A stretch of 64,000 nt of DNA from Schmidtea polychroa (lineage: Eukaryota). Positions 29,362 to 48,871 of this stretch are shown one piece after another. Under the pieces are notes generated by a model that saw only the letters and a list, made by a program, of their open reading frames with translations, made no database searches and was not told where the DNA came from. The stretch covers positions 141,112,001-141,176,000 of the forward strand of contig CM097886.1 in NCBI GenBank assembly GCA_044892525.1. The letters run 5' to 3'. Within the stretch, counting starts at the first letter, position 1. The number at the start of each line of letters is the position of its first letter. A program made the translations under genes and the position numbers.

Positions 29362-29499
29362 TATTTACTGTTTCTTGGGGAATTTTCGCATCATTTTTGG
29401 GTTTTCGTATTTAGGGTTTTCATACTATTATTATATAATATTTTATTGGTTATATACACCGATATATACAGATTATTATATACAACATTATTCGATTGG

Positions 29500-30888: not shown

Positions 30889-30973
30889 TCTATAATTATA
30901 TGTACAAATAGTTCTTATCGATACAGGTTCGATATTTTATTTACAATTATTTACATTTTAAGCTAGGTTTGGT

Positions 30974-31357: not shown

Positions 31358-31494
31358 CTCTTATGTAAATTTAATTTTATTTTATGATTCCCGTTATTGT
31401 ATAATATTGATACCGCGCTTATATAGAGATATAGTACTGTTATATACATTAAGATATACTTACTTTTTACAATTATATACAGTCATATTCCTTT

Positions 31495-34400
31495 CTATAT
31501 ACGTGAGTTTGGAGGGCGCTGAACGTTCCAGGCCTCCACCCACTGTTCTTGTTTGATATCACTTGGTCGTTTCACTCGATGTTGGAAGTTTCTGATTCGG
31601 GTCATTTCTAGTTCTCCGCGATGTCGTTTATCTTTAATTATTTTTATTGTTCCCCCCGTTATGATTAGGAATGCCCCTGTTATTATTATCCCACTGATCC
31701 ACATCATCTGCTTCACGCTTATACTCTCTGGTTTTTCCTTGTTTGTTAATGTTGATATCGCTTCTGTACTTTTCTCGTTTCCTCTTTTGCCATTTCCTTT
31801 CATCATTTCCCGTATTCTTGCTATTTCCTCGTTCATACCCTCCTTTGCCATCTTTTGTATTTTTTCCATCTCTTCCTCCGAAACATAGTTGTCCTGAGCT
31901 TCCTCACCAGTTTTCTTGTGCTTTCCTCCTTCGTTCTTTTCGTCGTGGTTTTTTCTTTTCTTTCCTCTTTTCCCCGGGTATCGTCGGCATTCTCTTTTTG
32001 ATTCGTTTCTCCAGATACAAACCGTATATTCCTTCGGGGGCTGCTGCTGCGTCACATATTGATGGCATCTCTCACCCGGTCCTAATCTTGAAATACAGAC
32101 TTTGTGCTCTTTTCTTGGTTGGAGCTGCGTTATTGCTACTTCGCCACCTTTTCCTAGGTGTACCTCTTTTCCTTTAACGTTCGTTATTCTTTTCCCGTCT
32201 CGGTTTCGGTATGCTTCTTGTATTCTTACTTCTGTTATTGGTTCTGTGTCCTCATTTATTAGTACTAGTTTCTGATACGCTCTAGACATACATCTTCCTA
32301 GTATGCACCTTTCCTTTAAGTCCCATTCTTCCTTTAAGTCCCACTGCTGCTCTTGTGCTTGCTTTTTCTTTTCTTGTTTTAGTTCGTCCTCTTTGCTATC
32401 TTGATTCTCCGCTTCTTTGGTTTCTTTTATCGTCCTCGTCCCTCCATGAGCTGTTACTAACTCTATCATGGTAAGCATAATTATCATTAATATCATATTT
32501 GTCTCTATTTCTTTGTTAGTGAAAGGTAGGCATACCCTCTGTTTTCCATTATTCGGTTTTTCCTCCTCTTTGGTCTTAGTTCCCGGGCTGTTTCCCTCTC
32601 TTTTCGTATCCGAATCCTTGTTTTCCGGTTTACCCTCCTCCTGTTCTCTTTTCTCTTTATCCTCCTTTCGGCCTTTTCCGTTATTGTCATCGTGTTTATC
32701 TCCCCCGCTGTCGTTTAAAATGTCGTCCTCGACATTTATATCGTTCAATAATCTGCGATATGCTGTTAGCACTCTGTTTCTTGCTAATTTTGCTTCGAAT
32801 TCAAACTCTTTTCTACCCGTTGCAGCATGTCTCTTTCTATTCCATTCTTTAACTAACTCTCTCAATTGCATACGACGATGTTTCCCAATTCGTTGTTGCT
32901 CGTTCTGATTTTGCGTGAATTTTAGGTCTTCTCTATTTAATACTATTAAAATTATTTTAGGTGTCCCCCCTTTAGTTAGGGTATTCTTTACCATCGCATT
33001 TTCTCCGTTTTCGTAGAATTCGTTTACATTTATCGCATATTTATTATTTTGTGGTACTCTCCAGGTTAATAATAATTTCATTGCTTCTAGATTTTTCCGT
33101 ACCGTATTCCATTGAAACTGAGATGTGTTTTTGCACATATTTTCAACTTCTTCTTTTGTCGCATTTTTGCAAATAAATCTGATCATTTCTAAGTTTGGCT
33201 GTATGGTTGCCCAGTCCAAGGTGGAATTTCCTTCATTGGACTTTTCGTCTAGTTTCGATCCTGATTGATGTAGGATGTGGAGTGTTTTTGGGTGTATTTT
33301 CGTTATAGCTGCATACATCATGGCGGTTTCACCTTGTTCATTTTTCGTGTTGGTTTCCTCGCCCATCTCTCCAAGGATTCTCACGATCGTTATTGCTCTA
33401 TTTTCTTTCGCCGCTAGTATTGCTTGTTGTAGGGGTGTTCTGGAATCCTTCGTTACCATCGTAAATGCTCGAGGCAAGAAGGTTTTGATTTTCCCGATAT
33501 CTAAATCCGTGGTTTGATCTCTTGCGTATGTGTGTACGGTTTTTATTATTTTGGACAATATTATTTCGTCTGGCAGCTCTAGCATTTCCTCAAAGAACAC
33601 TTCTTTTGCTTTGCGTATTATTGCCTCTTGATCTATACTCATTGATTTGGTTTCGATGACGTTGTTTGTGACCGTTTGGTTCGTTGTTGACTTTGATTCC
33701 CTGGATTTCTCATACCTTATTTTCGTTTTCTTTCCGTTTGGATTATTGATTCGTTCCTCTGCTGTAAGTATTTGGATAATATTCAGGTAATTCTCGCGGA
33801 TGTTATTCATTGTGTCCATCATATATAACACACTTACCGTTTCCCAATATTTATTTCGTACTTGGTTAGTAAATTGGAATAGGGATTTTTCGAATGTGTC
33901 GATTCGCTTTTTTGCTAACTGTTCGTCTTTATGATTTGTGAATTTTATCCCTCGTTCTAGTAATTGATTCGGGATTTCGAATAACTGATGTCCTTTCATA
34001 GCTTCTCTCATCAGCGTGTTCTCTCCTCTCGTGAACGCTTCGTTTACGTTGATCATATAATCGTTTCGAATTGGATTTCTCCATGTGATTAATATTCCGG
34101 TAATTGTCGTCAGTTTTTCTTTGATCGCTGTTAACAATCCATCATACATGTTTCCGACTTCCCGATTGTCCTCATATGATAGTAGTTCCATCAATGACGT
34201 GAACGCCTCGGTACTTCTCCCTTCGATAGCATGGTGTAGAGCGTTTTTCCGCTCGTGGTCTTGTGTAGTTATTTTCGATCCGGTATCGAGTAACGCGGTT
34301 ATAATGTCTTTTGTTTTACCTCTGTTTGCGGCTATCATTAATGGTGTGTAACCTTGGTTGTTTGTTTGTTCTGTTGATCGCTTGCAGTCGTGAAATGCTT

Positions 34401-37400
34401 CTATTGTTTCTAGTATTTGCTCGTTGTTACCTACTTTCATGAGTTTGTGTAATGGTGTGTCTCCGTAATGATCTGTTATTGTAAATAATATTGGCCATTG
34501 GCTTTTGACTACTCGCAATAATGGGTGTGTCCTTTCTCTATTTGCATAGTTCTCGATCATCGTCAATAATCCTCCTAATATTTCGAAATCTAATCGATCT
34601 TTTGCCCATCCAGGTATTTTAATTTTTACCTCCTTTACAATCTTTTCCGCTTCTGATGGTTGGATACCTAATCGTCCAGTGATCGGTTCTGCGAGTTGCT
34701 GCATCATGTTCATTCGGTAGGTTTGCGAACGTGTGGTTAATGTACGGCCTTCTGGTTGACTAGTGGCTGTTTTTGGAATTGATTTGCATCGTGCCACGTT
34801 TACGTATATTGGTCTGGTAAAGGGGTTATTTACCAATTTCACTCTTACATTAGTTTCGCCTACGAATAAGATCTCATATGGTCCTTTTCCGTTGCGTTGT
34901 AACTTTTTTGTGGTTCCTGGAATTAATTCCGGGGTTTCTATCATTACCCAATCACCTGTTTGGAACGTATGTTGCTTCACGTTTTTCTTTCGATCGTGTA
35001 AATCTTTATAACTTTCCTGGTAGAACTTGATATTTAATCCCGCAGTTTCCCAAATTTCTTGCATTCTTTCCTTGAATTTCGTAACATAATCATCGATCTC
35101 CATATACTGCGATATCGGTGGTTGGTATTCCAGGTCCATTGGCATATTACATTCTCTTCCGTACATTAATTTGAATGGGCTCATTTTCGTTGATGCGTGA
35201 ATCGACATTCTGTACGCCATAAGACATAGGTTTATATATTCGTCCCAATCTCGTTGGTGACGGTCAACGTAGTTTGATAACATTTGTATAAGTGTTCCAT
35301 TAAATCTTTCCGTCATCCCATTGGTTTGAGGGTGGTATGGAGATGTTCTTAGTTTTGCTATTTTGAAGTAATTTGTTACTTCGCTCATTATCTCACTCAT
35401 AAAATTTGTTCCCTGATCGGTTAAGATTTGTTTTGGTGTTCCATATCGGCAACATATCTCTTCTACCAAAATTTTTGCGATTGTTTTAGCTTTTTGGTCT
35501 GGCATCGCGAATGCTTCTGGGAATTTCGTAAGAAAGTCTGTGATCACCAGAATGTAAACGTTTCCTTTATCTGACTCTGGTAGTGGACCAACTACGTCCA
35601 TGGATATCATTGTCATTGGTTCTATTGGTACTGGCATTGGCGTTAAAGGTGCTTTCCATTTCGATCCCGTATTCTTCCTGGTTGCACAAGTTAGACAATT
35701 TTTTACCCATTCGGTTACATCTTCCGTTAACGTAGGCCAAAAATATTTCTGTTTCATTCTTGCTAACGTCTTTTTCGATGACATATGTCCTCCCAATCTC
35801 CCATCGTGATATTGCGTTAGTAACTCTTTTCGTCGGTTTTCCGGTATACACATTAATCGTTTTTCCCCATCCATTATCAGCAACCAATCTTTCTCTATAA
35901 TATATCGGTGTCGGTGTTTATCCATATGTTCTTTTAATTTTTGGTCTTTCGCATATACATCTGTCTTTCCGGTTTTTACATAATCGATAATTTGTTTTAA
36001 TTCCGCGTCCTCTTGTTGGTCCTTTCGTAATTGACAGAAATCCAAATCTTCCGCTACTATTAAGCATATGCGTTGCATTTCTGAATCCACCAAATCTGGG
36101 AAAATAAATCTTGACATACAATCGGCGTTGGCATTTGCTCTTCCCGCTTTGAATTTTATAAATGGGGAGTATTCTTGCAATTGCATGGCCCATCGCATCA
36201 GTCTACTGGACGCTTCTTTATGTTGCCCTAACCACACTAATGGTTGATGATCCGTGGTTATGCATATCTCATGTCCCCATAGTAAATATCGGAAGTGTTT
36301 GATAGCTTGTATTATAGCCAATGCTTCTCGTTCTGTTACCGAATAGTTCTTTTCGTGCTTTTTGAATGTTCGACTGTAATACCCGATTACTCTCTCTTTT
36401 CCCTCATCGTCTAATTGTCCCAGAATCGCGCCTGCCGCGTACCCGCTTGCATCCGTTGCCAATAGAAATGGCTTCTTAAAATCTGGGTGTACGAGGATAG
36501 GTGCTTCGATTAGTTTATCTCTCAGCGTTTCGAACGCCTGTTGTTGTTCTTTTTCCCAAATGAACGAAATATCCTTCTTTACTAATTCCTGGATTGGTTT
36601 TGCAATTCCTGCATAATTTTTGATAAATTTGCGATAGTATCCGCATAATCCTAGAAATTCCTGAACTTGGGTGACAGTTTTCGGTGCTGGACATGTTTTT
36701 ATTTTCTCAATGTTTCTTGGATCTGGCTCCTTTCCTTTAGCTGACACTATGTGTCCTAAAAACGTGACTTTTTCCTTTGCCCAATCGCATTTTGATGGTT
36801 TGAGTTTGAGTTTCCACTGTCTTAATCTAATAAATACGTTTCGGATATCTTCTAGATGTTGTTCAAATGTCGCTGAATAGATTAGTAAATCATCAATATA
36901 TACCATACATTGTTTGATTCCATGGGTGACAAAGTTCATACACCGTTGAAATGATGCTGGTGCGTTAGTCAGTCCAAATGGCATTTTCCTGAATTGATAT
37001 AGATCTCGTCCCAACGTGAAAGCTGTTTTCTCTTTGTCCTCATCTTTGACTTTAATCTGCCAGTATCCACTTTTTAGATCTAAAGAAGTAAAATATGCTG
37101 CCCCTTGCAACATCAATAACATCTCATTGATGTCCGGCAATGGATAGGTATCTCTCTTGGTCACTGCGTTTAACTTCCGATAATCGATACAGAATCGTTG
37201 GGTGCCATCTTTCTTTTTTACCATGACCACTGGGAATTGCCAAGGTGAGCAACTTGGTTCGATTACTTTTGCGTCTAGCATCTTTTGTACTTCTGTTTCG
37301 GCTATTTCTTTCTGCATTTCTGCTAGCTTGTATGGTCTCAATGCAATTGGGGTTTCGTCTATGAGTGGTATTGCATGTAAGGTAACATCACATGTACCCA

Positions 37401-40400
37401 AGTCTAAATCTGAGATGGCGAATATATCTTTATATTCTACCAACAATCGGTGCAATTTTTTCTTTTCGTCATTCGTCAACAACATACTATCTATTGTCCA
37501 TAATTCATCATCTTTGATCATCTCGTTGGTCACTTTCGGTAATTCTATGTCCATCATTGGGGTCAATCTTCCCAATTTTTCGTTCTCATAAATGATTTTG
37601 TCTTCCTCTTCGAAATTCGTGATGTTGAGCGGTATCACTCCTTCTTGGTTTATTGTGATTATTTCTCTCGCGAGTGGTAATTCTCGTCGCTTTTCGAATG
37701 ACTTGCTTGGTTCAAAGATAACTTCTCCTTCCATACCCGTATCCACTTTTATCTGACAAATCATCTGCGATTTTGCTGGTACTATTATTTTTTCTGGACA
37801 TCTGATGACTGCATTCATTTTGCATATTCTACCGGTTTTGTCTTTTAAACACATGGTTGTTAAGTCAATTACGACTTCCTTTAACAATTCTGGCATCAAA
37901 TCCGTTCCGATTATGCATGGTACGCTAAGTTTTGGTATTACTGCCAAATACGTTTCAATTTCGTTGTCCTGGTATCTCAATGTAGTCCACCATCTTCCGA
38001 CCACGTCCACTGTTTCTTTACTACATGCTATAATGTGAATTGTTGTTGATTCGATATCCTTCCAGTGTTTACTGGGGATTTGATTAATCGCTATCGCTGA
38101 TACATTAGCTCCGGTGTCTATCATAGCATTGGTTTCTTTACCATTGATTTGAATCATAACTGTTACTGCTGGACCTCCAGGTAAACTCATCGCTGCTATT
38201 GTTCTTACGTCATCTGCTTGATCTACACTTTTGGTACGTCGTGTTGGCATATAATGCATACCGGGTTGACTCGGTAATTGCGGATACATATTTTGTGTCA
38301 TGGTCAAAGCTGTTTGTGGTCCCACGATATCCGGTGGTATATAGCTTCCATTGGCGATCCAGGTGTTTGTCTTTTCCTTTTCCCAATATGGTGCCGTTTC
38401 CATTGGTTTTTCGTTTGGGTTTCTGTTTGGATAAAGACATTTATCGTTCCCGTTATCATCGTCGTCACTATCGCTGTTAGATGATTGGCTTCTAAATCGG
38501 TCCAAGAATTTTGGCTTATTCTTTTTCAATTGTCGTCTTGTCGCTTCATCGTACATTACTTTCCGGAATCGTCTGCCTACTTCCTCGTCGGTTCCTTTAA
38601 TCTTTGTTAATATTTTAATCAATCGCTTTATCCGATGAATGTCTTTTGAGTGGCCATGTAATACCATGGTCTTAGCTAAAAATGGTAAGAAGCCTACTAT
38701 CATTTTCCAATTAACTTTCTTTTCCCGCTTGTATATATCGAAACAAGCTAACATTTGTGTTAGTATTACTCTGACTATCTGAATTATGAGTATGATCCCT
38801 AATATCCCGGCCATCATTTGTCCAAAAACTAAGAATCTTCCCCACATTGCTTTCATCATGTTTGACGTAGCTTGTTGAAAATGGTCTGGCGATAATAGCA
38901 GCTCGTAATTCGGGCCTGATTGATAGTTTGTGCCCCCAGTTATTGTTACCATATTAGACAAAATGGATTCTCGTCTGGCTGGAAAGAGTACGTTAAGTCG
39001 TGCTGTTTCTAGATCTTCCGGGGAATACATACCACCGTTTGACACGTCTATAGGTTTGAAATCCAGCTCTGTGGCGAGTTCTATTAATCCAAATTTCTTG
39101 GGCTCCTCGGATATGGTTTTTCCCGGTAACATCATCCATTTCCCATCGGGCCTTTCATATAAAGGTCCGTATGCATTAGAACAGTTAAAGAGATTTGGGT
39201 AGAAACCCACTGGATTCATAATTCTAGTGACTGGTTGGACGAATCGATTTTGTCCTTTATAACGGATTTCTAATTCATTTGCACATCTCTTTTCGGGTAG
39301 TATGGATTTTTCTGGCATTCGTGCATACGTCTTGGTACACTGGTATGTGTACATCACTTCTCCTACCATTCTACCAAAGTGTCCATCTGGTAATGGGAGT
39401 GATGGCATCGTGTTATCTGGGTGCGTTATCGCAATAGCTAGCTTTGTTTTCAATATTTCTTTATTCAATGAACAATCGTTTTGTATCAGATCGTAATATA
39501 CTTTTTGCAAGGTCGTTTGTCCACGATGAAATAGAAAATCCATTTTATTATTTGCATATAAGTATAGTTTTACGTCCTCCGTTGCTATCTTTCCCACTGC
39601 TCTATCGATTATTTGTCTCGACATATAGATGCCTGCGTAATTGGTTTTATATACTATACTGTCACATTTGGTGGTTTCTTTCTCTTTGATAAACCTCATA
39701 CCTAGATCTGGATCGTCTGTGATTAATGCTGTTGGTGTCTTCTGCGTTGAAAGTCTCTTTTCTCTGGGAGATGGTGGCATTGGTTTTCCATTTCGCATCC
39801 TCACTCTGTCGTTTCCATCCTCGTCGTTCTCGTTCTCATATATTTCTCCTTTTACTTCATTGAACAAAGCACTTTTTAACAGTTGGAGTCGGCATTTTTG
39901 GGTATTAGCTTCATAGATTATAGTTGATACTCCTGTCCTACATACGTTTTCTGTAGCTCTACACGCTGGGTTGGTCTTCATTTGGTAATTATTTGCGTCA
40001 AATTGCGCTTCGTATTCTTTTAATTCGACCGTGTAAGACTCGATCACTACAACTCCCGATATTACCTCGCCTCGGATCGTATACGTACCTCCGTTACATG
40101 ACCCATCTGATGATTTTACTTTTCCGGATACGTAAACACTTTCGGTTTTAATCATTCCAGTTTGTCCGTGAATTGTCACTCCGTTATGCATTTTTAGCGC
40201 TCCGGTTCTAAATAGCTCTTTACAATCCTCTCGTTGTATTGATACGATTTCTTTATCCAGACCGGGTAGTATAAGAGTCGAATACGAATATTGTCCACAG
40301 TAATATGCGAGTACCTTTTTTGATACTACGCATTCCCTTGCTTGCGTTCTGATGAAATCTGATTCTTGATATACATGGTAAGTAACTTTTGTTCTCACGA

Positions 40401-43400
40401 TGTCCAATTTGTTGGGTGAGGCTTGTCTGCATTCTTCTATGTCTCTCAATGAGTATTTATCTCTCATTATCATGTTATCACAATCGTAGATGGTGAAACC
40501 TGTTGCTCCACTTGTGCACAACATCCATATCATCATAGTCATCATTAACGAATTTATTGATGCTTTTCTGCTTGCGGGATCTTTCATCGGTAGTTCCCAT
40601 TCTAGTTCATTTAACAATTTTTTCAATCTAACTTGCATCGACCTTTCTTGCTCATTTTTCCGTGGCGCTTGTATCAGTCTTTTCCATCCTCCTGCACGAA
40701 TAATGTGTGGTTCAATAGTATTCTCTATGATTGAAACGGTCATTTCTACATGATTTGCAAACTGTTTATTTGGTATTTTCCTCGCAGCTAGTCCCATCAA
40801 ATTATACATCAAATAAGTGATTACCACTAGGTGATGCTCGTCATCATTTGCATTTGTCGTGAGCTGCTCAATCACTCTCTTTGTTTCGTCCCAATCCGTT
40901 TTGGTGGTTTTCGTTTTCTCTTTGATTAACTTTGGGATTATCCCCGAAATGGTGTGCCATAATTGTCTAGCTTCCGTACTGGCTACTTTCCGTTGCCACA
41001 AACGTCTAAGTTGTGGGTTTGTTATTATTAACATATCTTTTAACAATTCTCGTATCCATTTTTCTCCTCTTTCGATCGTTGGTTGGGCTTCCTTTAGATC
41101 CCATACTATTTTATCCAATTTTTCTAATCGAACTTGCCCTTGTTCTTGCTTTAATTGTTCTTTGGTTTTGAACTCAGACTTTTCTCCTTGTTTCTTGGGT
41201 CTTCCTTTTGCCCGTTTTTCCATCATCGTTCCTGCTTCTCTGGTATTTTCGTAATTCGGATTTCTTTCGTTATCCGTTCTGGGTAATGAGCTATCGTTAT
41301 TTCTTAGCCACTCATTCCATTCGTCTATTATTTTGTCGGTTTGACTTTCTGGTGTTACTTTCGTTGGTTCTCTTTGCTTCTGGAATTGTTCATCCGTTTC
41401 GGTTTCCGTAGTATTGTCGATGATTTCTTTGATGTTTAGTTTCGTGGGTTGTTGATAACTCGTTGATGGCTGGTTGTTAGTCCACATTTCGGCTCCTGTC
41501 GGCCATCTTACTAATAGCGGTGATCTTTCTCCTGATTCATCGTCACTATCTTCCAGGATTATCTCTTCAACTTCTTCAGTTTCATTAGATTTACTTGGTG
41601 CTTTGTTCGGACTTGGAGTACTCAAACTGCCTTTTGTTGGTTTAATAATTTTACTTTTCCTTTTTAACGGTTTTCCCAACGTTTCTGCCATTGTTAATAC
41701 ATTTGTCTCTTCCAATCTCATGGGTGTTATCCCGACGTCTGCATTATCGTCTAGTGATTTTCCGAACAGTTGCAGATGGAATGGAGTTTCATATGCTAAT
41801 TTCTTTTTTAATTCTCTAATTTTTGTTGTTGGATGCACCTCTAGTTCCTCGATGCTCTTGTCCGGATACTTGATTCGGATGTGATACCTCTCCTGGGTGT
41901 CTTGTGCCCATTCCTGATTTCTCCATTTTCGAATAATTTGTTCTAGCTGTTCTGGATACCATTCATTATATTGCCGGTATTCCTCTATTGCCTTTGCCAT
42001 TCCTCTCAGATTGTGGATATTCTCTGATGTCTTTAAGATGATGTTAGCCAACGCTACTACTTGGCGTTTTTGATTTTTCGCTCCCATTGCTAAGATATCG
42101 CCTAATTGTTTATACCTTTCTGTCTCTTCTCGTTCTCTTGCTTCCGTCGCTTCCTCGCCGTCCATATCAGCATATTCCCGTTCCTTTTTCCTCATTGCAT
42201 GAATATGTCTCGCTTCATTTTCGCTTTCTGATGTGACATCCGTCTCGCTTTCGTCATCTGATGTCTGTCCCCTTGCTTCCTCTTCATATTCTGGGGGTTC
42301 CTCTTCTTCTTCCTCCGATTCACTTTCTGTCTCACCGATGTCTGTTTCTACGAAGGTTCCTTTCCGGATTTCCCATTCCTTACTTTCTGCATTCCACACT
42401 CTTTCCCATGGGGTTCGTCTGCAAGATCTGGTATTTAATTTCGTGATTTTTCCTTGTAGCTCTTTTTCTTTTAACCATTGTTGGTGGATTTCAATTATTT
42501 CTGTAGATTTTCGATATAACGTTTTCATCCGGTCTCGTATTTCTTTTTGATATGTTACATCTCTTGTTCGGAATTCATCCATTGGTACTATCCTGATTAT
42601 CTGATGATTGTCCCACATACCCATTTCGCTTAACGAGGTGTCGTCCTCCGTTCGTAATATTATCTTATCGTACATCATGACTACATCATCCACCATACCA
42701 TCACTACTTTCGCTACGTACCTTTTCCGTTATCTCTTGGTTTATTTTTGATACCAAGTCATCCACTGTACTCTGATTGCTCATTTTTATTCGTCGTTTTT
42801 CTTCGTTCGGTAACCATATGGTTATTTCTAACCTCTGTGGCTGGGTTTCTTTTAACCTTCCATATTTGTGGATCAAATTTATGGTTCTCCAATCACTCAT
42901 TCGGAGCATTTCTGTATCTCGCAACCGGCTCATTAGTTCGTACATGGCTGGGGCTCGTCTGGTGATGAGTAAATCCCAGTTGTCTTCTACTTGTTCTTGA
43001 ATTTGTTTGATCAGCTTATCCAGGTTTCGTCTCAGAGTACATTGTTTTATTTGTTCTAATTTCAATTTGATATTAAAATCATATTCTGCCTTGGCATCTT
43101 TAGCCCAATCGTAAAGGTTGGCTGGTTGTTTTTCTTTATGCAACTTCAGTATTTGCGTTTCTCCTGGCCATATTAGTGCATCTACTAAGTGCATATCTGG
43201 TTTGATCTGTTCTCCTTGGTATTGATACAGATATTCTTTCTTTCTCGACCTTCCCAAATGTTCTCGTATCCAATCGAAAAGTTCGTCGGTGACTGTATTT
43301 TTTATCCACATTCTTTCAAGTCCTCTACTCGTTCCAATTTTTATTACATACCGCGTGGTATCGGCCTGCTTCATTTTTTCCATATAATTTTTTATACTTG

Positions 43401-45348
43401 ATTTCTCCTCGTTTGGTATTAGATCTTTCTCGTTTCTTTCCAATTTCATCACTTTTTGCACGAATCGCCTGAATGGTATTACGTCGATGAACTCTTGGTT
43501 CCTCACTACTACTGGGAGTATTTCGGCTACCTGTTTTATCGCTTCCTCCCTTGCTTTTCTCAACTTTATTTCGATATCTTCGTCTTCACTTTCACTGGTT
43601 ATCTCGTTTCCGCTTTCTTCCTCTTTGATTTCCCCTTTTGGGGGTTCGCTTATTTCATTCGGCTGTAGTATTTCTCCACCCAAACTACTTACATAATCTT
43701 CTTCTTCGTCTGACGATGCTACATCTTTTGTCCTTTTCATCATATTGATTTGCAAGTTTCTCATCCTTGGTACTTTCTTTAGTTTCTTTCTTTCGAATAT
43801 TGTTGTTTCTTCTGGTTCTGATTCTTGTAGCATTTGGTGGTTTAGTTGACTGGTTTGTTCCTTGCTCTTGTTATTTTCATCTTCTGTCTCGGTTTTCGCT
43901 TTATTATGTTCTTTTTCGATTTTATCCTTCATCTTTTTCCAGAATATTTTCTGAATTCTCTGGTTTCCTTTTAAAATCGTGGTTGAATTCTCTGTTTTCA
44001 TTTCCGTTGTTATTTCTTTTACCTTTTCTGGTTCAGTCATGGGTACTACCCTTGGGCTTTTCCCGTAATTGTAGCAATACTGGCTCTTCATGTCTTTTAC
44101 TAACCTCATCATATTTATTCGCAATGGTTGTTCTTGTCGTTGTTGGTTGCGTTCTTGTTTTATCCTCTCTTCCTCGGCCTGTAGCCTTTGCCCTTCTTGT
44201 ACATGTTGATGCACTTCATAATTGTTGAGATTTTCGGTACTCCTCATCATACGTATATTCTGGGTTTGTTGTGGTGCTGATTCTTGTCTTGGTCTCATCA
44301 TTTGCTGCATCATCTGTTTCATCTGCGAAATTTCCTGCATAACGTTCATTTGTTTTCCTTCGTTAGGGTTACTTTGTCGTTGCGGATTCGCTATATAATT
44401 ATTATTTCGCTGTGGTGGTCGTTGTTGTTGGCCCCTTTCTCGGCAATCTCTGGAGATGTGACCTGGCTGACCACAGTTAAAACAGCCTCGCAATTGGCAT
44501 ACATTTTCGGTATGTCCACGCCGTCCGCAACGATTACAATTTGAATTTCTATAACAATCTCTGTCCCAGTGTCCTGGTTTACCGCATGTTCGGCACTGCT
44601 TGTTATCGTTCATATTTCGCCGATTATTGAAATTGTTCTCATTATTCGGGTTGTTACGATTACCATTATTCCCGTTTGATCGTCCTTGTGGTGGTTTGAA
44701 AATTTGGTGCGCTCCTGGTATAAATTGATTCATTTTCGGTTCTTGATTGTTGTTATCTCCGTTATCCGCTTTCGCTATTGCTGTCGCTATCCTTCCCTCC
44801 TCTTGCATAATATTCATTTGAGCTGGAAGGTGGAGCTCGCATCTCGTAGCCCAATCTATGGCTTCCTCTAATGTTTTGCACATTTGACAACCTACTGAGG
44901 CTCTTACTTCTTCTCGGCGTAATCCCTCTATGAAATAACCAATCAGATTTTCTTCGGGTAATTTTCCATTCATTGCTTTCTTCGCTAATCTCCGCAATTC
45001 ACTGGCATATAATGTTATCGATTCGTTTGCTCTTTGTTTCCTATTTGCTAGTTCGCCCAACGCCTGGTTGATTGGCTTACTGGCTCCGAAGGTTTTCTTC
45101 AGGAATGTTTTAATATCTTCCCACTTTTCTAATTTCGTGTCTCTCTCTTTAGCTTCTAAATATACCTCTAATGCACTATCGCACAAAAACAACGGCATCC
45201 TTTTACTAATTGCTTCGGGTGTCCATCCACACACAGTGATATAAACTTCAAAATTAGTTATGAACGTTGCTAGCTTGTTTGCATTTCCGTTGAACGGTTC
45301 TCCTCTGAACTTCTCTTTATACTCGTCGGTTTTTACGACATTCGTCAT
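31495..45348 (-). CDS. 4617-aa Gag-Env-Pol-ankyrin polyprotein
   Basis: Single ORF containing Gag CA and three CCHC knuckles, UBL-like and Bcl-2-like segments, a glycoprotein, protease (IDTGA), RT (PFGL, YIDD), RNase H (TDAS, EREA, TDH), integrase (HHCC, DDE, GPY), ankyrin repeats and a TM. Confidence 0.97.
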   Translation of the reverse strand: MTNVVKTDEYKEKFRGEPFNGNANKLATFITNFEVYITVCGWTPEAISKRMPLFLCDSALEVYLEAKERDTKLEKWEDIKTFLKKTFGASKPINQALGELANRKQRANESITLYASELRRLAKKAMNGKLPEENLIGYFIEGLRREEVRASVGCQMCKTLEEAIDWATRCELHLPAQMNIMQEEGRIATAIAKADNGDNNNQEPKMNQFIPGAHQIFKPPQGRSNGNNGNRNNPNNENNFNNRRNMNDNKQCRTCGKPGHWDRDCYRNSNCNRCGRRGHTENVCQLRGCFNCGQPGHISRDCRERGQQQRPPQRNNNYIANPQRQSNPNEGKQMNVMQEISQMKQMMQQMMRPRQESAPQQTQNIRMMRSTENLNNYEVHQHVQEGQRLQAEEERIKQERNQQRQEQPLRINMMRLVKDMKSQYCYNYGKSPRVVPMTEPEKVKEITTEMKTENSTTILKGNQRIQKIFWKKMKDKIEKEHNKAKTETEDENNKSKEQTSQLNHQMLQESEPEETTIFERKKLKKVPRMRNLQINMMKRTKDVASSDEEEDYVSSLGGEILQPNEISEPPKGEIKEEESGNEITSESEDEDIEIKLRKAREEAIKQVAEILPVVVRNQEFIDVIPFRRFVQKVMKLERNEKDLIPNEEKSSIKNYMEKMKQADTTRYVIKIGTSRGLERMWIKNTVTDELFDWIREHLGRSRKKEYLYQYQGEQIKPDMHLVDALIWPGETQILKLHKEKQPANLYDWAKDAKAEYDFNIKLKLEQIKQCTLRRNLDKLIKQIQEQVEDNWDLLITRRAPAMYELMSRLRDTEMLRMSDWRTINLIHKYGRLKETQPQRLEITIWLPNEEKRRIKMSNQSTVDDLVSKINQEITEKVRSESSDGMVDDVVMMYDKIILRTEDDTSLSEMGMWDNHQIIRIVPMDEFRTRDVTYQKEIRDRMKTLYRKSTEIIEIHQQWLKEKELQGKITKLNTRSCRRTPWERVWNAESKEWEIRKGTFVETDIGETESESEEEEEEPPEYEEEARGQTSDDESETDVTSESENEARHIHAMRKKEREYADMDGEEATEAREREETERYKQLGDILAMGAKNQKRQVVALANIILKTSENIHNLRGMAKAIEEYRQYNEWYPEQLEQIIRKWRNQEWAQDTQERYHIRIKYPDKSIEELEVHPTTKIRELKKKLAYETPFHLQLFGKSLDDNADVGITPMRLEETNVLTMAETLGKPLKRKSKIIKPTKGSLSTPSPNKAPSKSNETEEVEEIILEDSDDESGERSPLLVRWPTGAEMWTNNQPSTSYQQPTKLNIKEIIDNTTETETDEQFQKQREPTKVTPESQTDKIIDEWNEWLRNNDSSLPRTDNERNPNYENTREAGTMMEKRAKGRPKKQGEKSEFKTKEQLKQEQGQVRLEKLDKIVWDLKEAQPTIERGEKWIRELLKDMLIITNPQLRRLWQRKVASTEARQLWHTISGIIPKLIKEKTKTTKTDWDETKRVIEQLTTNANDDEHHLVVITYLMYNLMGLAARKIPNKQFANHVEMTVSIIENTIEPHIIRAGGWKRLIQAPRKNEQERSMQVRLKKLLNELEWELPMKDPASRKASINSLMMTMMIWMLCTSGATGFTIYDCDNMIMRDKYSLRDIEECRQASPNKLDIVRTKVTYHVYQESDFIRTQARECVVSKKVLAYYCGQYSYSTLILPGLDKEIVSIQREDCKELFRTGALKMHNGVTIHGQTGMIKTESVYVSGKVKSSDGSCNGGTYTIRGEVISGVVVIESYTVELKEYEAQFDANNYQMKTNPACRATENVCRTGVSTIIYEANTQKCRLQLLKSALFNEVKGEIYENENDEDGNDRVRMRNGKPMPPSPREKRLSTQKTPTALITDDPDLGMRFIKEKETTKCDSIVYKTNYAGIYMSRQIIDRAVGKIATEDVKLYLYANNKMDFLFHRGQTTLQKVYYDLIQNDCSLNKEILKTKLAIAITHPDNTMPSLPLPDGHFGRMVGEVMYTYQCTKTYARMPEKSILPEKRCANELEIRYKGQNRFVQPVTRIMNPVGFYPNLFNCSNAYGPLYERPDGKWMMLPGKTISEEPKKFGLIELATELDFKPIDVSNGGMYSPEDLETARLNVLFPARRESILSNMVTITGGTNYQSGPNYELLLSPDHFQQATSNMMKAMWGRFLVFGQMMAGILGIILIIQIVRVILTQMLACFDIYKREKKVNWKMIVGFLPFLAKTMVLHGHSKDIHRIKRLIKILTKIKGTDEEVGRRFRKVMYDEATRRQLKKNKPKFLDRFRSQSSNSDSDDDDNGNDKCLYPNRNPNEKPMETAPYWEKEKTNTWIANGSYIPPDIVGPQTALTMTQNMYPQLPSQPGMHYMPTRRTKSVDQADDVRTIAAMSLPGGPAVTVMIQINGKETNAMIDTGANVSAIAINQIPSKHWKDIESTTIHIIACSKETVDVVGRWWTTLRYQDNEIETYLAVIPKLSVPCIIGTDLMPELLKEVVIDLTTMCLKDKTGRICKMNAVIRCPEKIIVPAKSQMICQIKVDTGMEGEVIFEPSKSFEKRRELPLAREIITINQEGVIPLNITNFEEEDKIIYENEKLGRLTPMMDIELPKVTNEMIKDDELWTIDSMLLTNDEKKKLHRLLVEYKDIFAISDLDLGTCDVTLHAIPLIDETPIALRPYKLAEMQKEIAETEVQKMLDAKVIEPSCSPWQFPVVMVKKKDGTQRFCIDYRKLNAVTKRDTYPLPDINEMLLMLQGAAYFTSLDLKSGYWQIKVKDEDKEKTAFTLGRDLYQFRKMPFGLTNAPASFQRCMNFVTHGIKQCMVYIDDLLIYSATFEQHLEDIRNVFIRLRQWKLKLKPSKCDWAKEKVTFLGHIVSAKGKEPDPRNIEKIKTCPAPKTVTQVQEFLGLCGYYRKFIKNYAGIAKPIQELVKKDISFIWEKEQQQAFETLRDKLIEAPILVHPDFKKPFLLATDASGYAAGAILGQLDDEGKERVIGYYSRTFKKHEKNYSVTEREALAIIQAIKHFRYLLWGHEICITTDHQPLVWLGQHKEASSRLMRWAMQLQEYSPFIKFKAGRANANADCMSRFIFPDLVDSEMQRICLIVAEDLDFCQLRKDQQEDAELKQIIDYVKTGKTDVYAKDQKLKEHMDKHRHRYIIEKDWLLIMDGEKRLMCIPENRRKELLTQYHDGRLGGHMSSKKTLARMKQKYFWPTLTEDVTEWVKNCLTCATRKNTGSKWKAPLTPMPVPIEPMTMISMDVVGPLPESDKGNVYILVITDFLTKFPEAFAMPDQKAKTIAKILVEEICCRYGTPKQILTDQGTNFMSEIMSEVTNYFKIAKLRTSPYHPQTNGMTERFNGTLIQMLSNYVDRHQRDWDEYINLCLMAYRMSIHASTKMSPFKLMYGRECNMPMDLEYQPPISQYMEIDDYVTKFKERMQEIWETAGLNIKFYQESYKDLHDRKKNVKQHTFQTGDWVMIETPELIPGTTKKLQRNGKGPYEILFVGETNVRVKLVNNPFTRPIYVNVARCKSIPKTATSQPEGRTLTTRSQTYRMNMMQQLAEPITGRLGIQPSEAEKIVKEVKIKIPGWAKDRLDFEILGGLLTMIENYANRERTHPLLRVVKSQWPILFTITDHYGDTPLHKLMKVGNNEQILETIEAFHDCKRSTEQTNNQGYTPLMIAANRGKTKDIITALLDTGSKITTQDHERKNALHHAIEGRSTEAFTSLMELLSYEDNREVGNMYDGLLTAIKEKLTTITGILITWRNPIRNDYMINVNEAFTRGENTLMREAMKGHQLFEIPNQLLERGIKFTNHKDEQLAKKRIDTFEKSLFQFTNQVRNKYWETVSVLYMMDTMNNIRENYLNIIQILTAEERINNPNGKKTKIRYEKSRESKSTTNQTVTNNVIETKSMSIDQEAIIRKAKEVFFEEMLELPDEIILSKIIKTVHTYARDQTTDLDIGKIKTFLPRAFTMVTKDSRTPLQQAILAAKENRAITIVRILGEMGEETNTKNEQGETAMMYAAITKIHPKTLHILHQSGSKLDEKSNEGNSTLDWATIQPNLEMIRFICKNATKEEVENMCKNTSQFQWNTVRKNLEAMKLLLTWRVPQNNKYAINVNEFYENGENAMVKNTLTKGGTPKIILIVLNREDLKFTQNQNEQQRIGKHRRMQLRELVKEWNRKRHAATGRKEFEFEAKLARNRVLTAYRRLLNDINVEDDILNDSGGDKHDDNNGKGRKEDKEKREQEEGKPENKDSDTKREGNSPGTKTKEEEKPNNGKQRVCLPFTNKEIETNMILMIIMLTMIELVTAHGGTRTIKETKEAENQDSKEDELKQEKKKQAQEQQWDLKEEWDLKERCILGRCMSRAYQKLVLINEDTEPITEVRIQEAYRNRDGKRITNVKGKEVHLGKGGEVAITQLQPRKEHKVCISRLGPGERCHQYVTQQQPPKEYTVCIWRNESKRECRRYPGKRGKKRKNHDEKNEGGKHKKTGEEAQDNYVSEEEMEKIQKMAKEGMNEEIARIREMMKGNGKRGNEKSTEAISTLTNKEKPESISVKQMMWISGIIITGAFLIITGGTIKIIKDKRHRGELEMTRIRNFQHRVKRPSDIKQEQWVEAWNVQRPPNSRI
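33165..34480 (-). other. Ankyrin-repeat region of the polyprotein (two clusters)
   Basis: GDTPLHK, GYTPLMIAA, KNALHHAI; RTPLQQAI, GETAMMYAA, GNSTLDWAT. Confidence 0.85.
34810..38160 (-). other. pol: Pol region: aspartic protease, RT, RNase H, integrase
   Basis: DTG at about 38115, YIDD at about 36895, TDASG at about 36450, H-H-C-C zinc finger at about 35690-35810, D-D-E core and GPY at about 34880. Gypsy domain order. Confidence 0.97.
38640..40560 (-). other. env: Envelope glycoprotein domain (chuvirus/gB-like, class III fusogen type)
   Basis: Signal-like LMMTMMIWMLCTSGATG followed by FTIYDC, YSLRDIEEC, ECVVSKKVLAYYCG, DCKELF, DGSCNGGTY, and C-terminal FGQMMAGILGIILIIQIVRVIL. The Cys spacing resembles chuvirus-like glycoproteins known from invertebrate retroelements. 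Confidence 0.8.
44443..45310 (-). other. gag: Gag capsid-like domain and three CCHC zinc knuckles
   Basis: LFLCDSALEVY...RKQRANESITLYASELRRLA...YFIEGL; CRTCGKPGHWDRDC, CNRCGRRGHTENVC, CFNCGQPGHISRDC. Confidence 0.95.
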
Positions 45349-46659
45349 GATTGGTGTTCTAGGTTCGTCTGTTTCTTTTAAATTGTCTAACGATGTGATT
45401 AAACTTTGGGCTGATAATTCCTCGGTTGACGTTGCTAAACTATTAGTGATATCGGACAGACTTTCTCTACTTCGAGATCGACTAGGGGTATATCCGAGAT
45501 TTTCTTGGTCGAATATGGGTACTTGATTGGTTCTTCTGGATCCTTGTGATATTCCTCTTTGATGTTTAATGGATCGTCCTCTTTTGAGTTGTTGTAATTC
45601 GTCTCCTGAAAATTATACGTCTCCGGGCTTACTAGAAGATCTAAGATTGGGTTTATCCGTGATTCCTTTCTTACGCTTCTTGGTAATTAGCGGCTATTGA
45701 ATTGGACGCGTTCGGTTCTGATTGTGTTTCCTTCGATAAATATTCTGTATGAATCTGCTACTGAGATCCTGAGGAGATTTACTAATCCTTGGCAGATGGC
45801 TGCTAATACTTCTTCCGTTCTGGAGTCTTCCGGTTGCTGTGTCTCTCGGTGCGGGTTCTGAATGGATTTATCCTTGGTTGATTGTCGATTTTCTTCGAAT
45901 TCCTTTTGTGCAGGTTCTGGATTGTCTTGGTTGGCTGGATTGGCTTGATATCTAAAATGAAAAAATGATCTCGTGTTGCATTTGCTTACACGACTTCATC
46001 ATTCTTTCTACAACATTCAAAAACAGACACCTTTTAGGTTTCTGTTTGTGCTTCCCCTATCTTTTGTGAAATCCTTTCTGCGGGTTATAATATCCCATCA
46101 GCCCGTATTTTCCGTCGATTTTAAATTATCTATATGGGGTAGTAACAATTATCTATAAAGTCGTAATAATTATCTATTCGTTATCAATTATAGTAAAAAT
46201 AGGTCGTTGTCGGTCTCTGCTTATTACCCCCCTTCGTTTTCTTATTCCTTTGCGCTGTTGTCGCTGTTTTACTTTTCGTATTTACTATTATCCCACTCGG
46301 TACTACTCTGGAACCGATAAACATACATTTTCCCGGTTTACCCAAAAAAAAATTCCGTAGAGTTTCTCTACTTCACTGGGATCCCTTTAATTAGTTAGTT
46401 ACTTTCCTCTTTACTCATTATCATTGTTTCATCTATTCTTTATTTTCTATTATCTCTTTAATTCGTTTCCTTCTTCCCTTTCCTTTTTCCTTATAATCTT
46501 ATTTTCTTTTCCACGAGCTCGTTTATTTCCTCTCTAAACTCGAATTTTCAAAATTACATTCAATTTGTTCTAGCTAGCTTTAATATTCCATATCACTAGT
46601 AATTTAAATATTATCTCATTGTAGCTTAACTGCTATCTCTCGCTTTTCTAGGCCTTTAC

Positions 46660-47470
46660 GACTGGCTGGCAGCTCAATCTTCTTCTCAGCTCAATCTTCT
46701 TCCTTCTGATCGGTTAGACTATTCAACAACTCGATCTTACGACTGGCTGGCACTATTCAACAGCTCAATCTTCTTCCTTCTGATCGGTTGGACTATTCAA
46801 CAACTCGATCTTACGACTGGCTGGCACTATTCAACAGCTCAATCTTCTTCCTTCTGATCGGTTGGACTATTCGACAACTCGATCTTACGACTGGCTGGCA
46901 CTATTCAACAGCTCAATCTTCTTCCTTCTGATCGGTTGGACTATTCAACAACTCGATCTTACGACTGGCTGGCACTATTCAACAGCTCAATCTTCTTCCT
47001 TCTGATCGGTTGGACTATTCAACAACTCGATCTTACGACTGGCTGGCACTATTCAACAGCTCAATCTTCTTCCTTCTGATCGGTTGGACTATTCAACAAC
47101 TCGATCTTACGACTGGCTGGCACTATTCAACAGCTCAATCTTCCTCCTTCCTGATCGGTTGGACTTTTCACAACTCGACCTTACGACTGGCTGGCACTAT
47201 TCAACAGCTCAATCTTCCTCTTTCCTGATCGGTTGGACTTTTCACAACTCGACCTTACGACTGGCTGGCACTATTCAACAGCTCAATCTTCCTCCTTCCT
47301 GATCGGTTGGACTTTTCACAACTCGACCTTACGACTGGCTGGCACTATTCAACAGCTCAATCTTCCTCCTTCCTGATCGGTTGGACTTTTCACCACTCGA
47401 CCTTACGACTGGCTGGCACTATTCAACAGCTCAGTCTTCCTCCTTGACCGGCTGGATTATTCGACAGCTC
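46660..47470. repeat. 74-bp tandem array (about 10 copies plus partials) in the element leader
   Basis: gactggctgg recurs at 46741, 46815, 46889, 46963, 47037, 47111, 47185, 47259, 47333 and 47407. Confidence 0.97.
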
Positions 47471-48050
47471 GGCTTCAATATTCCTTGCTCTGCATGCTTC
47501 TATTTCTCTTTTCTTCTTTTACTCTAGTTTACCATTTTCTCTGTCTACTTTTAATTTGTCGACTTAATCTTTACCGCTTGGGAGTGTTTCCCCTTTTCCC
47601 CCCTTGCTCAAAACGCACGACGATCGCGATGATCCATTTCTACATTGGCATGGTGATCAGTCATGTCGCAAAAACTTCTCATCATATGCGATGGTACCCC
47701 GCCCTACGCTTCTTACTTGGGTTGATCAGTTATCCCCTCCCAACGGGTTCTTGCAATAAGACGTACCGCCCGAAGGTGGCTCGGTTTGTACCCCTGCAGT
47801 CTATATTGGGACTAATTCCACGTTATTCCACCCTCTCTTCATTTGATTCCAAAAAAAAAATAAAACAAAACAAACACGCAAATATTCATTCGTCATGCAA
47901 ATTTTATTAGTCCTAATCATCAAAACTTTTTAAAGACGAATTTATTTATCATAAACATAAAGATTGAATCATTAACAGTACGTGTTACCTCAACAATTTC
48001 ATGCATTCTTGTTCAAACATCGTATACTTGCTGTTACATCGCCGGCCGTT

Positions 48051-48536
48051 TCATTCGCCATAATAGACCATATGGGTCTCTTTTATTTCATATTTGCACA
48101 TCGTGCATCTTTTTAGGTCTTTTACACACTCTTCACAGTGACTGAGGTGTCCACACGGCAAGAATAATACGCGAATAGGACGGAGTTTGCAGGCTATACA
48201 AGTTCGTAATTGGTTAACTTTTTCCTGTATTTTTTGTTCGATTGCATCTGGTATTGTATTTAGTGAGTCTTTTAGACGCTGATAATCTAGATTTAATGTT
48301 GGGTGGTTCAATCTCTCTTGATACCACTGATATACGGTTTCGGGGTTTATTTTTCCATCTGGGCGACTTAGGCCTGTGGCTAATATCATATGATTAGGTA
48401 CGACTGGTGTTTGTCCGATTGCTTGCAGTAATATCGCGTTGATTTTTTCTCTTTTATGCGTCAGTGTTGTTAGGGAGTCGTTTTCTATATCGATAAACTT
48501 GAGCAGTTGTTGCATTTGGTTCGCGAATTCTGTCAT
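48051..48536 (-). CDS. IAP/MDM2-type C-terminal RING finger protein without BIR (161 aa), upstream of gag
   Basis: CIACKLRPIRVLFLPCGHLSHCEECVKDLKRCTMCKYEIKETHMVY at the extreme C-terminus, matching the IAP RING pattern (C..C....v.F.PCGH..C..C...l..CP.Cr..I). Confidence 0.85.
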   Translation of the reverse strand: MTEFANQMQQLLKFIDIENDSLTTLTHKREKINAILLQAIGQTPVVPNHMILATGLSRPDGKINPETVYQWYQERLNHPTLNLDYQRLKDSLNTIPDAIEQKIQEKVNQLRTCIACKLRPIRVLFLPCGHLSHCEECVKDLKRCTMCKYEIKETHMVYYGE

Positions 48537-48853
48537 AGCTGTTGGAAAAGTAATGTTTTAATAATATGTAGTAAATTAATAGTTAATTCGTTAATTGGTT
48601 TCTTTAACCATTGTTAATTATTTAATTTGACTACTTTATCTCCTTTATTTATATATATCCTTAATTTTCCTATTATCTATATTTTGATTTTCTCTACTTA
48701 GTTCCTAATGTAATTTAATAATCAATAGTCACTTTGCATTCGTCAAGCAATGGTCGGTTGAAAATAGAAAATCGATGTGATAAATCCCTTTAATTTTGTA
48801 TGAAACTCCCGGTGAATTTCGCATTCGTTAATAGAAATTTCGATCGACTGTAG

Positions 48854-48871
48854 ATCCCGGCTGAGCCCCCA
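48854..48871 (-). promoter_or_regulatory. Primer-binding site, tRNA-Pro type
   Basis: Minus strand TGGGGGCTCAGCCGGGAT versus the canonical tRNA-Pro PBS TGGGGGCTCGTCCGGGAT (16/18), 7 nt inside the 5' LTR boundary. Confidence 0.8.

What the first reader, a model, noticed from the sequence alone, without database searches (positions are those of the whole stretch)
38640..40500. Chuvirus/gB-like class III fusion glycoprotein suggests infectious particles
Seen: a conserved Cys pattern starting YDC and a C-terminal hydrophobic FG...AGILGI helix with an intact frame. Established: chuvirus-like and herpes gB-like glycoproteins have been captured by some invertebrate LTR elements. Inference: this element may spread cell to cell or horizontally.
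Basis: partly seen in the sequence, partly recalled or inferred. Interest (0 to 1): 0.7.

Follow-up and report, generated by a model that had tools for sequence, protein, structure and literature searches.

The report
Fusion protein of giant flatworm retrotransposon
This is an intact virus-type membrane-fusion (envelope) gene built into a recently inserted 30-kb retrotransposon of a kind already described in planarian flatworms, so it is a new member of a known group, and whether it makes infectious particles is still untested.

Summary
Bases 40557-38761 (minus strand) encode a class III fusion glycoprotein: Pfam Monjiviricetes_fusion E=7e-72; AlphaFold pLDDT 86; top fold matches are herpes gB among solved structures and chuvirus-like G among viral models. 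It is not a separate gene. It is residues 1686-2284 of an unbroken 4,705-codon frame (gag, env, protease, RT, RNase H, integrase, ankyrin) in a 30,176-bp LTR element with 99.92% identical LTRs and a 4-bp target duplication. This layout matches the planarian Burro elements, where in-frame env between gag and pol was reported in 2019 (PMC6431247); gB-type gag-env-pol elements of Schmidtea are catalogued in PMC13524379. An internal signal peptide (13 of 13 relatives inspected) and 14 conserved cysteines argue that Env is still translocated and folded. Infectious particles are plausible but not shown, and nothing here tests horizontal transfer. One addition: a second signal-plus-transmembrane protein at the polyprotein's C-terminus, also seen in 4 of 4 relatives that run past integrase, a candidate partner of the fusogen. 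Verdict: real, new member of a known kind.

The parts
22575..52750 (-). Whole Burro-like Ty3/gypsy LTR element, 30,176 bp (internal 22,433 bp), GC 38.8% against 30.0% outside; flanked by a 4-bp duplication CCTG (22571-22574, 52751-52754)
48879..52750 (-). 5' LTR, 3,872 bp, TG...CA ends; holds a 264-codon ORF (49413-50207) with no Pfam match
22575..26445 (-). 3' LTR, 3,871 bp; differs from the 5' LTR by 2 substitutions and 1 indel (99.92%)
48851..48872 (-). Primer-binding-site-like sequence a few bases inside the 5' LTR, resembling the complement of a tRNA-Pro 3' end
   Evidence: sequence; the tRNA-Pro assignment is recalled, not tested (no tRNA gene in the window)
48051..48557 (-). Accessory ORF in the 3.5-kb leader with a C-terminal RING finger
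   Evidence: PF13920 E=3.7e-11
46613..47500 (.). 74-bp tandem array (about 10 units) in the leader
   Evidence: family D1
31495..45348 (-). ORF1 polyprotein, 4,617 aa from the first Met, no stop
44443..45195 (-). Gag: Retrotrans_gag domain and three CCHC knuckles
   Evidence: PF03732 E=8e-10, PF00098; three knuckles
40684..41913 (-). Ubiquitin-like (41680-41913) and Bcl-2-like (40684-40902) segments just upstream of env; both weak
   Evidence: PF00240 E=0.004 and PF00452 E=0.03, both under the curated cut-offs; same order as reported for Burro
40498..40557 (-). Internal signal-peptide-like segment (aa 1686-1705) ending in small residues A-T-G; cleavage before F1706 is inferred
   Evidence: hydropathy peak; like segment before [YF]DC in 13 of 13 relatives inspected
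38827..40497 (-). Class III fusogen ectodomain (aa 1706-2262): 14 conserved Cys, candidate fusion loop CGQYSY (40299-40282), 48-residue central helix (39567-39424), one N-glycosylation sequon, REKR in a flexible loop (39765-39754)
38761..38817 (-). Env transmembrane helix (aa 2266-2284); a weaker conserved hydrophobic stretch (KD 1.31) follows at aa 2300-2318
35329..38160 (-). Pol in Ty3/gypsy order: protease (DTG), RT (YIDD), RNase H, integrase
33175..34425 (-). Ankyrin repeats after integrase
   Evidence: PF12796 E=2e-17
31498..32496 (-). Predicted second type-I membrane protein at the polyprotein C-terminus: signal-like 32496-32446, Cys-bearing ectodomain, TM 31707-31636; fold not determined
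   Evidence: hydropathy; like pair in 4 of 4 relatives that run past integrase; no homolog or fold found
29500..30936 (-). Accessory TRAF-like ORF (RING, zinc fingers, MATH)
   Evidence: PF21355 E=2e-27, PF22486 E=3e-27
26676..29364 (-). Three further accessory ORFs: two charged, coiled-coil-like by eye (28252-29364, 27385-28161) and one with signal-like and TM segments (26676-27344)
   Evidence: no family match at cut-off

Best explanation
It is the working envelope (class III, gB/chuvirus-type fusogen) of a Burro-like endogenous retrovirus-like element, probably of a dugesiid planarian. Shown: fold class, intact frame, position between gag and pol, recent insertion. Inferred mechanism: one polyprotein is threaded through the ER membrane, as flavivirus or alphavirus polyproteins are. 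Gag and accessory domains are made in the cytosol; the internal signal at aa 1686-1705 sends the ectodomain into the lumen, where signal peptidase frees its N-terminus and the disulfides form; the helix at aa 2266-2284 stops transfer, so protease, RT and integrase are made back in the cytosol as the tail of Env until the element's protease releases them. This ties Gag, Env and Pol to one membrane at equal amounts, lets an enveloped particle bud, and lets Env fuse it with a neighbouring cell of the same animal (stem or germ cells), where the element integrates.
For: PF24664 E=7e-72. Model pLDDT 86 with long strands, a 48-residue helix and a TM helix. Foldseek PDB: all 38 rows shown are herpes gB, best E=4e-14. 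BFVD: best rows are chu-like and related G, E=1e-39, TM-score up to 0.60. VIA: gB Z 9.8 (434 aligned, rmsd 9.3), then rabies, Chandipura and Bourbon virus glycoproteins at Z 5.6-6.7. Long-term constraint: 14 Cys kept in 93-100% of rows; ectodomain 34-41% identical to three relatives whose protease is only 22-27% and RT 60-63% identical. Internal signal before [YF]DC in 13 of 13 relatives inspected. ORF1 has just four strong 11-residue hydrophobic peaks, in signal-TM-signal-TM order, which leaves Pol cytosolic. LTRs 99.92% identical with target duplication and all Pol catalytic motifs present. Contigs of all 4 runs laid cover all 30 bins, env included, with many variants; 19 of the 26 listed variant places in ORF1 are third codon positions. 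Burro elements are reported among the most active elements in planarian stem cells (PMC6884822, one passage).
Against: No particle, fusion, processing or expression data for this element. Gag has only ~50 residues before the capsid-like domain and starts Met-Thr, so no myristoylated matrix is evident, and only one PPxY motif, at chance level. One N-glycosylation sequon only. The second candidate fusion loop is polar. The signal is weaker than those of relatives (11-mer KD 2.05 against 2.15-3.42 in 10 rows). A second, weaker hydrophobic stretch after the TM (KD 1.31) would put Pol in the lumen if it crossed the membrane. The variant count rests on 40 of 1,348 rows shown, with only 3 in env.
Confidence: 0.6

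Rival explanations
1. Env is folded and under selection but works without free particles: it fuses intracellular membranes or makes local cell-cell contacts or syncytia through which unenveloped capsids pass, or it blocks superinfection.
For: No matrix or myristoylation signal, sparse late-domain motifs; forced 1:1 Gag:Env:Pol output is unlike budding retroviruses (established knowledge). All conservation evidence fits this equally well.
Against: The signal-anchored N-terminal half could replace matrix as a membrane tether (inference, by analogy with HCV core or flavivirus capsid anchors). Drosophila errantiviruses use Env on particles (PMC13524379 section 11).
Confidence: 0.22
2. Env is now a passenger: the element copies itself inside cells, and the env stretch stays stop-free only because it lies in frame upstream of pol.
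For: Any stop or frameshift in env would abolish Pol, so an intact frame is by itself no evidence of Env function. No short-term dN/dS could be computed because no genome is held.
Against: Frame constraint does not explain retention of all 14 Cys, the signal, the fusion-loop aromatics and higher identity than protease across lineages only ~60% identical in RT. Env could be deleted in frame, yet all env bins are covered in 4 of 4 runs.
Confidence: 0.1
3. The element is a true exogenous virus that moves between individuals or species.
For: Complete fusogen, a predicted second surface protein and TRAF, RING and Bcl-2-like host modulators. The four best-holding runs carry two different organism codes at similar share, 0.70-0.73, which was not resolved.
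Against: No test here shows host-element discordance. PMC13524379 (sections 5, 9) finds host-congruent clades. The two organism codes come from one study and may be labels of one taxon.
Confidence: 0.06
4. A chuvirus glycoprotein gene recently integrated by chance into an LTR element (non-retroviral endogenous viral element).
For: Nearest named folds are chu-like G proteins; such integrations are common in arthropods (PMC7642597, search listing only).
Against: In-frame fusion at both ends; the same position relative to gag or pol in 11 database polyproteins; identity to named viral G only 15-20%; retroelement-linked Envs cluster together (13-row group, support 97).
Confidence: 0.02

Closest known systems
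Burro / GYPSM1 giant Ty3/gypsy elements of dugesiid planarians (PMC6431247 section 7, read in full; Grohme 2018 not available)
   Same: >30 kb with multi-kb LTRs; one huge ORF1 (4,617 aa here; 4,873 and 5,140 aa there); gag with three CCHC; ubiquitin-like and Bcl-2-like segments, then env in frame, then PR-RT-RH-IN and ankyrin; MATH/TRAF; tandem repeats.
   Different: TRAF is a separate ORF downstream of ORF1 (inside ORF1 in S. mediterranea, upstream ORF in D. tigrina); no BIR found; that paper likened env to gypsy Env while noting mononegavirus hits, whereas the fold here is class III. No direct sequence comparison with Burro1-4 was possible.
HSV/gB-type GAG-ENV-POL 'errantiviruses' of Platyhelminthes, esp. 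Smed_errantivirus_5, Cys type C1a (PMC13524379; sections 5 part 1, 6 part 1, 9 part 1, 11 and supplement rows seen)
   Same: Ty3/gypsy pol, gB-type env between gag and pol. The printed domain I-II sequence of Smed_errantivirus_5 matches 102 of 187 gap-free positions by hand count (about 55%), closer than any full-length database hit (about 40%).
   Different: A distinct family at ~55% Env identity. That paper's main text has no occurrence of 'Burro', 'single ORF' or 'in-frame', lists no LTR or primer site for the six Schmidtea entries, and leaves the entry mechanism open.
Chuvirus / Monjiviricetes glycoprotein G (PF24664)
   Same: Same family profile, Cys pattern and fold.
   Different: 15-20% identity; those are stand-alone ~650-aa proteins, while this one is cut out of a retroelement polyprotein.
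Herpesvirus gB (also rhabdovirus G, thogotovirus Gp)
   Same: Class III architecture in the post-fusion-like form.
   Different: ~10% identity, TM-score ~0.36-0.38; gB needs gD and gH/gL, and no such partners are identified here.
Mosquito BEL/Pao elements with chuvirus-like glycoprotein (PMC7642597, search listing only; also cited in PMC13524379)
   Same: LTR element with the same glycoprotein family.
   Different: BEL/Pao, not Ty3/gypsy; different host; env not reported inside a giant gag-env-pol frame in the passages seen.

Membership tests
Class III viral fusogen | Fold of gB / rhabdovirus G / gp64 type | tested here: met
Class III viral fusogen | Long central helix between beta-rich domains | tested here: met
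   helix 327-374 at pLDDT ~90
Class III viral fusogen | Hydrophobic internal fusion loops on the beta-hairpin domain | tested here: inconclusive
   Loop CGQYSY between strands 64-83 and 89-93 is aromatic and its columns are mostly hydrophobic or aromatic in relatives; the second loop (141-152) is polar. PMC13524379 notes single-loop forms in insects. Loop assignment is by analogy.
Class III viral fusogen | Signal peptide and C-terminal TM anchor | tested here: met
   hydropathy and conservation only
Class III viral fusogen | Homotrimer | tested here: inconclusive
   complex prediction gave no verdict
Class III viral fusogen | Membrane-fusion activity | not testable with these tools
   needs a cell assay
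Burro-like giant Ty3/gypsy element | Total length over 30 kb with multi-kb LTRs | tested here: met
   30,176 bp; LTR 3.87 kb
Burro-like giant Ty3/gypsy element | Single giant ORF1 with gag, CCHC knuckles, env in frame, PR-RT-RH-IN, ankyrin | tested here: met
Burro-like giant Ty3/gypsy element | MATH/TRAF domain in ORF1 or an accessory ORF | tested here: met
   ORF 29500-30936
Burro-like giant Ty3/gypsy element | Bcl-2-like, ubiquitin/SUMO-like and dUTPase-like segments | tested here: inconclusive
   Bcl-2 E=0.03, ubiquitin E=0.004, no hit for the PR-RT spacer; the original calls used HHpred, not available here
Named families Burro-1 to -4 | BIR domain | tested here: not met
   no BIR hit in ORF1 or the six accessory ORFs scanned; filed as Burro-like, not as one of the named families
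Named families Burro-1 to -4 | Sequence identity to the reference elements; host Schmidtea | not testable with these tools
   references and host genome not held
gB-type GAG-ENV-POL errantivirus (operational term of PMC13524379) | Ty3/gypsy pol, gB-type env between gag and pol, uninterrupted, LTR-flanked | tested here: met
gB-type GAG-ENV-POL errantivirus (operational term of PMC13524379) | Several intact genomic copies | tested here: inconclusive
   many variant contigs in 4 of 4 runs, none spanning the element
Chuvirus-derived non-retroviral endogenous viral element | Stand-alone viral G sequence independent of the retroelement frame | tested here: not met
   in frame within ORF1, same arrangement in relatives

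The most novel reading that the evidence does not exclude
Burro-like elements are enveloped endogenous retroviruses with a membrane-threading polyprotein, flavivirus-style, that yields two surface proteins from one frame: the gB-type fusogen and a C-terminal type-I protein (possibly fibronectin-III-like) acting as attachment or triggering partner. The env signal doubles as the membrane anchor of Gag and the Bcl-2-like domain. They spread between stem cells of the planarian body.
Probability: 0.2. Interest if true: 0.75.

Novelty: new member of a known kind. Interest (0 to 1): 0.32.

Why it matters
As it stands, it adds one young, complete element to a described group and settles for this element that the in-frame env is class III rather than gypsy F-type. 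How gB-type envs of invertebrate retroelements enter cells is stated as unknown (PMC13524379 section 11). An intact, recently inserted copy, probably in a regenerating flatworm with tractable stem cells, makes that testable. If the signal-TM-signal-TM reading is right, it shows a retroelement that makes capsid, envelope and enzymes from one membrane-threaded chain and names a candidate partner for a gB-like fusogen.

Tried and rejected
Single-sequence search of solved structures: 0 hits; the alignment profile gave only gB, weakly, E 0.009-0.36 (33 of 33 rows). Trimer prediction of residues 315-545: no verdict. No RNA holder listed among runs; run X7 is RNA only by guess, so its cover of env is not used as expression evidence. 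Metagenome contig scan: 140 pattern matches, 0 confirmed; the viral-contig scan could not run on the alignment; phage records 0. C-terminal membrane protein: no homologs, no Atlas hit, model pLDDT 36, best Z 2.6, no Pfam or PDB hit at a useful level for it or three relatives (weakest hint an FN3-fold family at E=0.07). The FN3-like motif (this element plus 3 of 4 relatives) was written after seeing those sequences, so its shuffle rates are not valid p-values. Alignment A3 scattered the query and was not used. Atlas search of the Bcl-2-like region: no hit. The first tree run did not finish; the FastTree tree omits 1 of 110 rows, P0009, and has no outside root. Earlier scan notes: none in 3 look-ups. 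PMC10309623 (passages): the Cer1 ORF is not an env, so not a parallel. Literature searches for planarian particles, gag-env-pol, class III fusion assays and Burro membrane proteins (listings only, apart from the papers named) showed no functional test of such an Env and no mention of the C-terminal membrane protein; Grohme 2018 and its supplements could not be seen and may bear on this.
Full report
Observation. The stretch 38640-40500 is read on the minus strand. YDC begins at 40488 and the FGQMMAGILGI helix at 38826. It has no stop codon, but it is not a gene of its own: it lies inside a 4,705-codon frame from 45612 to 31495, 4,617 aa from the first Met. The 649-aa segment around it matches Pfam PF24664 (Monjiviricetes fusion glycoprotein) at E=7.3e-72. 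In an alignment with 109 relatives, 14 of its 16 cysteines are conserved, 12 in every row with a residue and 2 in 102 of 109.

The fold. AlphaFold2 with that alignment gave mean pLDDT 86 and pTM 0.65, with long beta-strands, a 48-residue helix (327-374), a beta-rich domain after it and a long C-terminal membrane helix. Foldseek against solved structures returned herpesvirus gB in all 38 rows shown, best E=3.9e-14, identity about 10%, TM-score about 0.36-0.38 for post-fusion forms. Against viral models the best rows were chu-like, xinmo-like and related glycoproteins, E down to 1e-39, TM-score up to 0.60, identity 15-20%. The independent aligner ranked HSV-1 gB first (Z 9.8, 434 residues, rmsd 9.3), four more gB entries next, then rabies G, Chandipura G, prefusion gB and Bourbon virus glycoprotein (Z 5.6-6.7), with one unrelated chain among them and unrelated helices just below. 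A sequence profile alone found only gB in the PDB, weakly. The protein is a class III fusogen by fold. The trimer was not confirmed and fusion cannot be tested here.

The element. Two direct repeats of 3,871 and 3,872 bp (22575-26445, 48879-52750) differ by two substitutions and one indel, begin with TG, end with CA and are flanked by CCTG on both sides: a 30,176-bp LTR element inserted recently, at 38.8% GC in 30.0% GC flanks. ORF1 carries gag with three CCHC knuckles, weak ubiquitin-like and Bcl-2-like segments, env, protease, RT, RNase H, integrase and ankyrin repeats, with the catalytic motifs present. A TRAF-like ORF and three unassigned ORFs follow; a RING ORF and a 74-bp array lie in the leader. 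Contigs of four public runs cover all 30 bins of the 18 kb laid, with many variant contigs; of the 26 listed variant places in ORF1, 19 are third codon positions, and the one indel listed within ORF1 is 3 bases. Only 40 of 1,348 substitution rows and 12 of 29 indel rows were shown, so this is a hint of constraint, not a measurement.

Relatives. A search of 1.84 billion representatives found 1,062 proteins at E<=0.001; the best 150 were listed. The closest (33-40% over the full length) are long polyproteins. Eleven carry gag-type or pol domains in frame with env in gag-env-pol order (P0002-5, P0007, P0010, P0015-18, P0152). In a FastTree tree of 109 ectodomains, 9 of the 10 rows I labelled as retroelement-linked fall in one 13-row group (support 97) with four unlabelled rows, the tenth next to it, apart from the ~650-aa stand-alone glycoproteins. 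The tree has no outside root, so the direction of transfer between viruses and retroelements is not resolved, but a recent chance integration is unlikely. Against three relatives the ectodomain is 34-41% identical, protease 22-27%, integrase about 50% and RT 60-63%.

How it probably works. An intact frame proves little here, because a stop in env would also cut off pol. The better evidence is what has been kept. ORF1 has only four strong 11-residue hydrophobic peaks, at aa 1689, 2270, 4373 and 4641. The first precedes YDC and looks like a signal peptide; a like segment stands before [YF]DC in 13 of 13 relatives inspected. I infer a chain threaded through the ER membrane: Gag side cytosolic, ectodomain lumenal after signal-peptidase cleavage, stop-transfer at aa 2266-2284, Pol cytosolic as the Env tail until the protease frees it, then a second signal and TM near the C-terminus. 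This would tether Gag and Pol to the Env-bearing membrane without a matrix domain, which is not evident. Budding and entry into neighbouring cells are inferred, not shown (confidence 0.6). Against: one N-glycan sequon, a polar second loop, a comparatively weak signal, and a second weaker hydrophobic stretch after the TM. Rivals are contact-mediated or intracellular fusion (0.22), passenger (0.1), exogenous horizontal spread (0.06) and chance viral insert (0.02).

A second membrane protein. The signal-plus-TM pair at the C-terminus recurs in 4 of 4 relatives whose records run well past integrase, though the sequences do not match each other significantly. This element and three of the four show a motif that resembles fibronectin type III by eye (motif recalled and fitted after the fact). 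No search confirmed a fold. It is a candidate attachment or triggering partner and nothing more at present.

What is known. PMC6431247 (section 7 read) describes planarian Burro elements: over 30 kb, one ORF1 of 4,873-5,140 aa, MATH, ankyrin, Bcl-2-like and SUMO-like parts, and env in frame between gag and pol with hits to mononegavirus fusion proteins; it already proposes that they are integrated proviruses. PMC13524379 (named sections and supplement rows) lists six Schmidtea elements with gB-type env in gag-env-pol order, 1 to 215 copies, argues for ancient, mainly vertical association, and calls the entry mechanism unknown. Its Smed_errantivirus_5 domain I-II sequence matches this Env at 102 of 187 positions by hand count. 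Single passages report Burro transcripts in stem cells (PMC6884822) and piRNA repression (PMC10558129); PMC11410931 (passages) gives over 70% A/T for the Schmidtea genome. The host is therefore probably a dugesiid planarian (inference). I file the element as Burro-like, not as a named Burro family, since no BIR was found and the references could not be compared.

Verdict. Real, correctly recognised as class III, and part of a known kind of element. Infectivity is open and horizontal transfer untested. The threading model and the second membrane protein did not appear in the searches named under Tried and rejected, but Grohme 2018 could not be read. Interest 0.32; the most novel reading has probability about 0.2 and would deserve 0.75.

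Noticed in passing
window 31498-32496 (-): Second signal-plus-TM unit at the end of ORF1, with a like pair in 4 of 4 relatives that run past integrase; fold unknown, FN3-like by eye only.
   Followed up: partly
window 26676-27344 (-): Accessory ORF with signal-like and TM segments and a few Cys: a possible third membrane protein of the element.
   Followed up: partly
window 40546-40902 (-): The Bcl-2-like segment ends ~45 residues before the env signal, which could double as its tail anchor; a GGW motif lies within 110 residues upstream of the first env Cys motif in 4 of 13 relatives.
   Followed up: partly
window 49413-50207 and 23270-23902 (-): ORF inside the LTR, 264 codons in the 5' LTR and shifted to 210 in the 3' LTR, consistent with the single LTR indel; starts with a signal-like stretch; no Pfam match.
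   Followed up: no
window 26446-26475: The sequence before the 3' LTR is not a typical polypurine tract.
   Followed up: no
P0152, P0003, P0005, P0002: Related polyproteins carry several aspartic-protease-like domains in one chain, up to 7 matched stretches in P0152.
   Followed up: no
P0007: An env-pol polyprotein of this group is deposited as a hypothetical protein of a Flavobacteriaceae metagenome bin (HBK71150.1), probably animal DNA in the bin.
   Followed up: no
window 1-1876 and 17069-17958 (-): Two related copies (89-91% identical) of another gag-bearing LTR element with CCHC knuckles; the second is cut short.
   Followed up: no
window 18935-21123 (+) and 62396-63181 (-): DNA-transposase-like frames: a split one with no Pfam hit for its longer part, which the giant element's 3' flank adjoins, and a hAT C-terminal fragment (PF05699 E=1e-11).
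   Followed up: no
window 59371-60287; 8452-9313 with 55820-56692: A 254-bp inverted repeat pair (MITE-like) and a dispersed ~85% identical inverted repeat.
   Followed up: no
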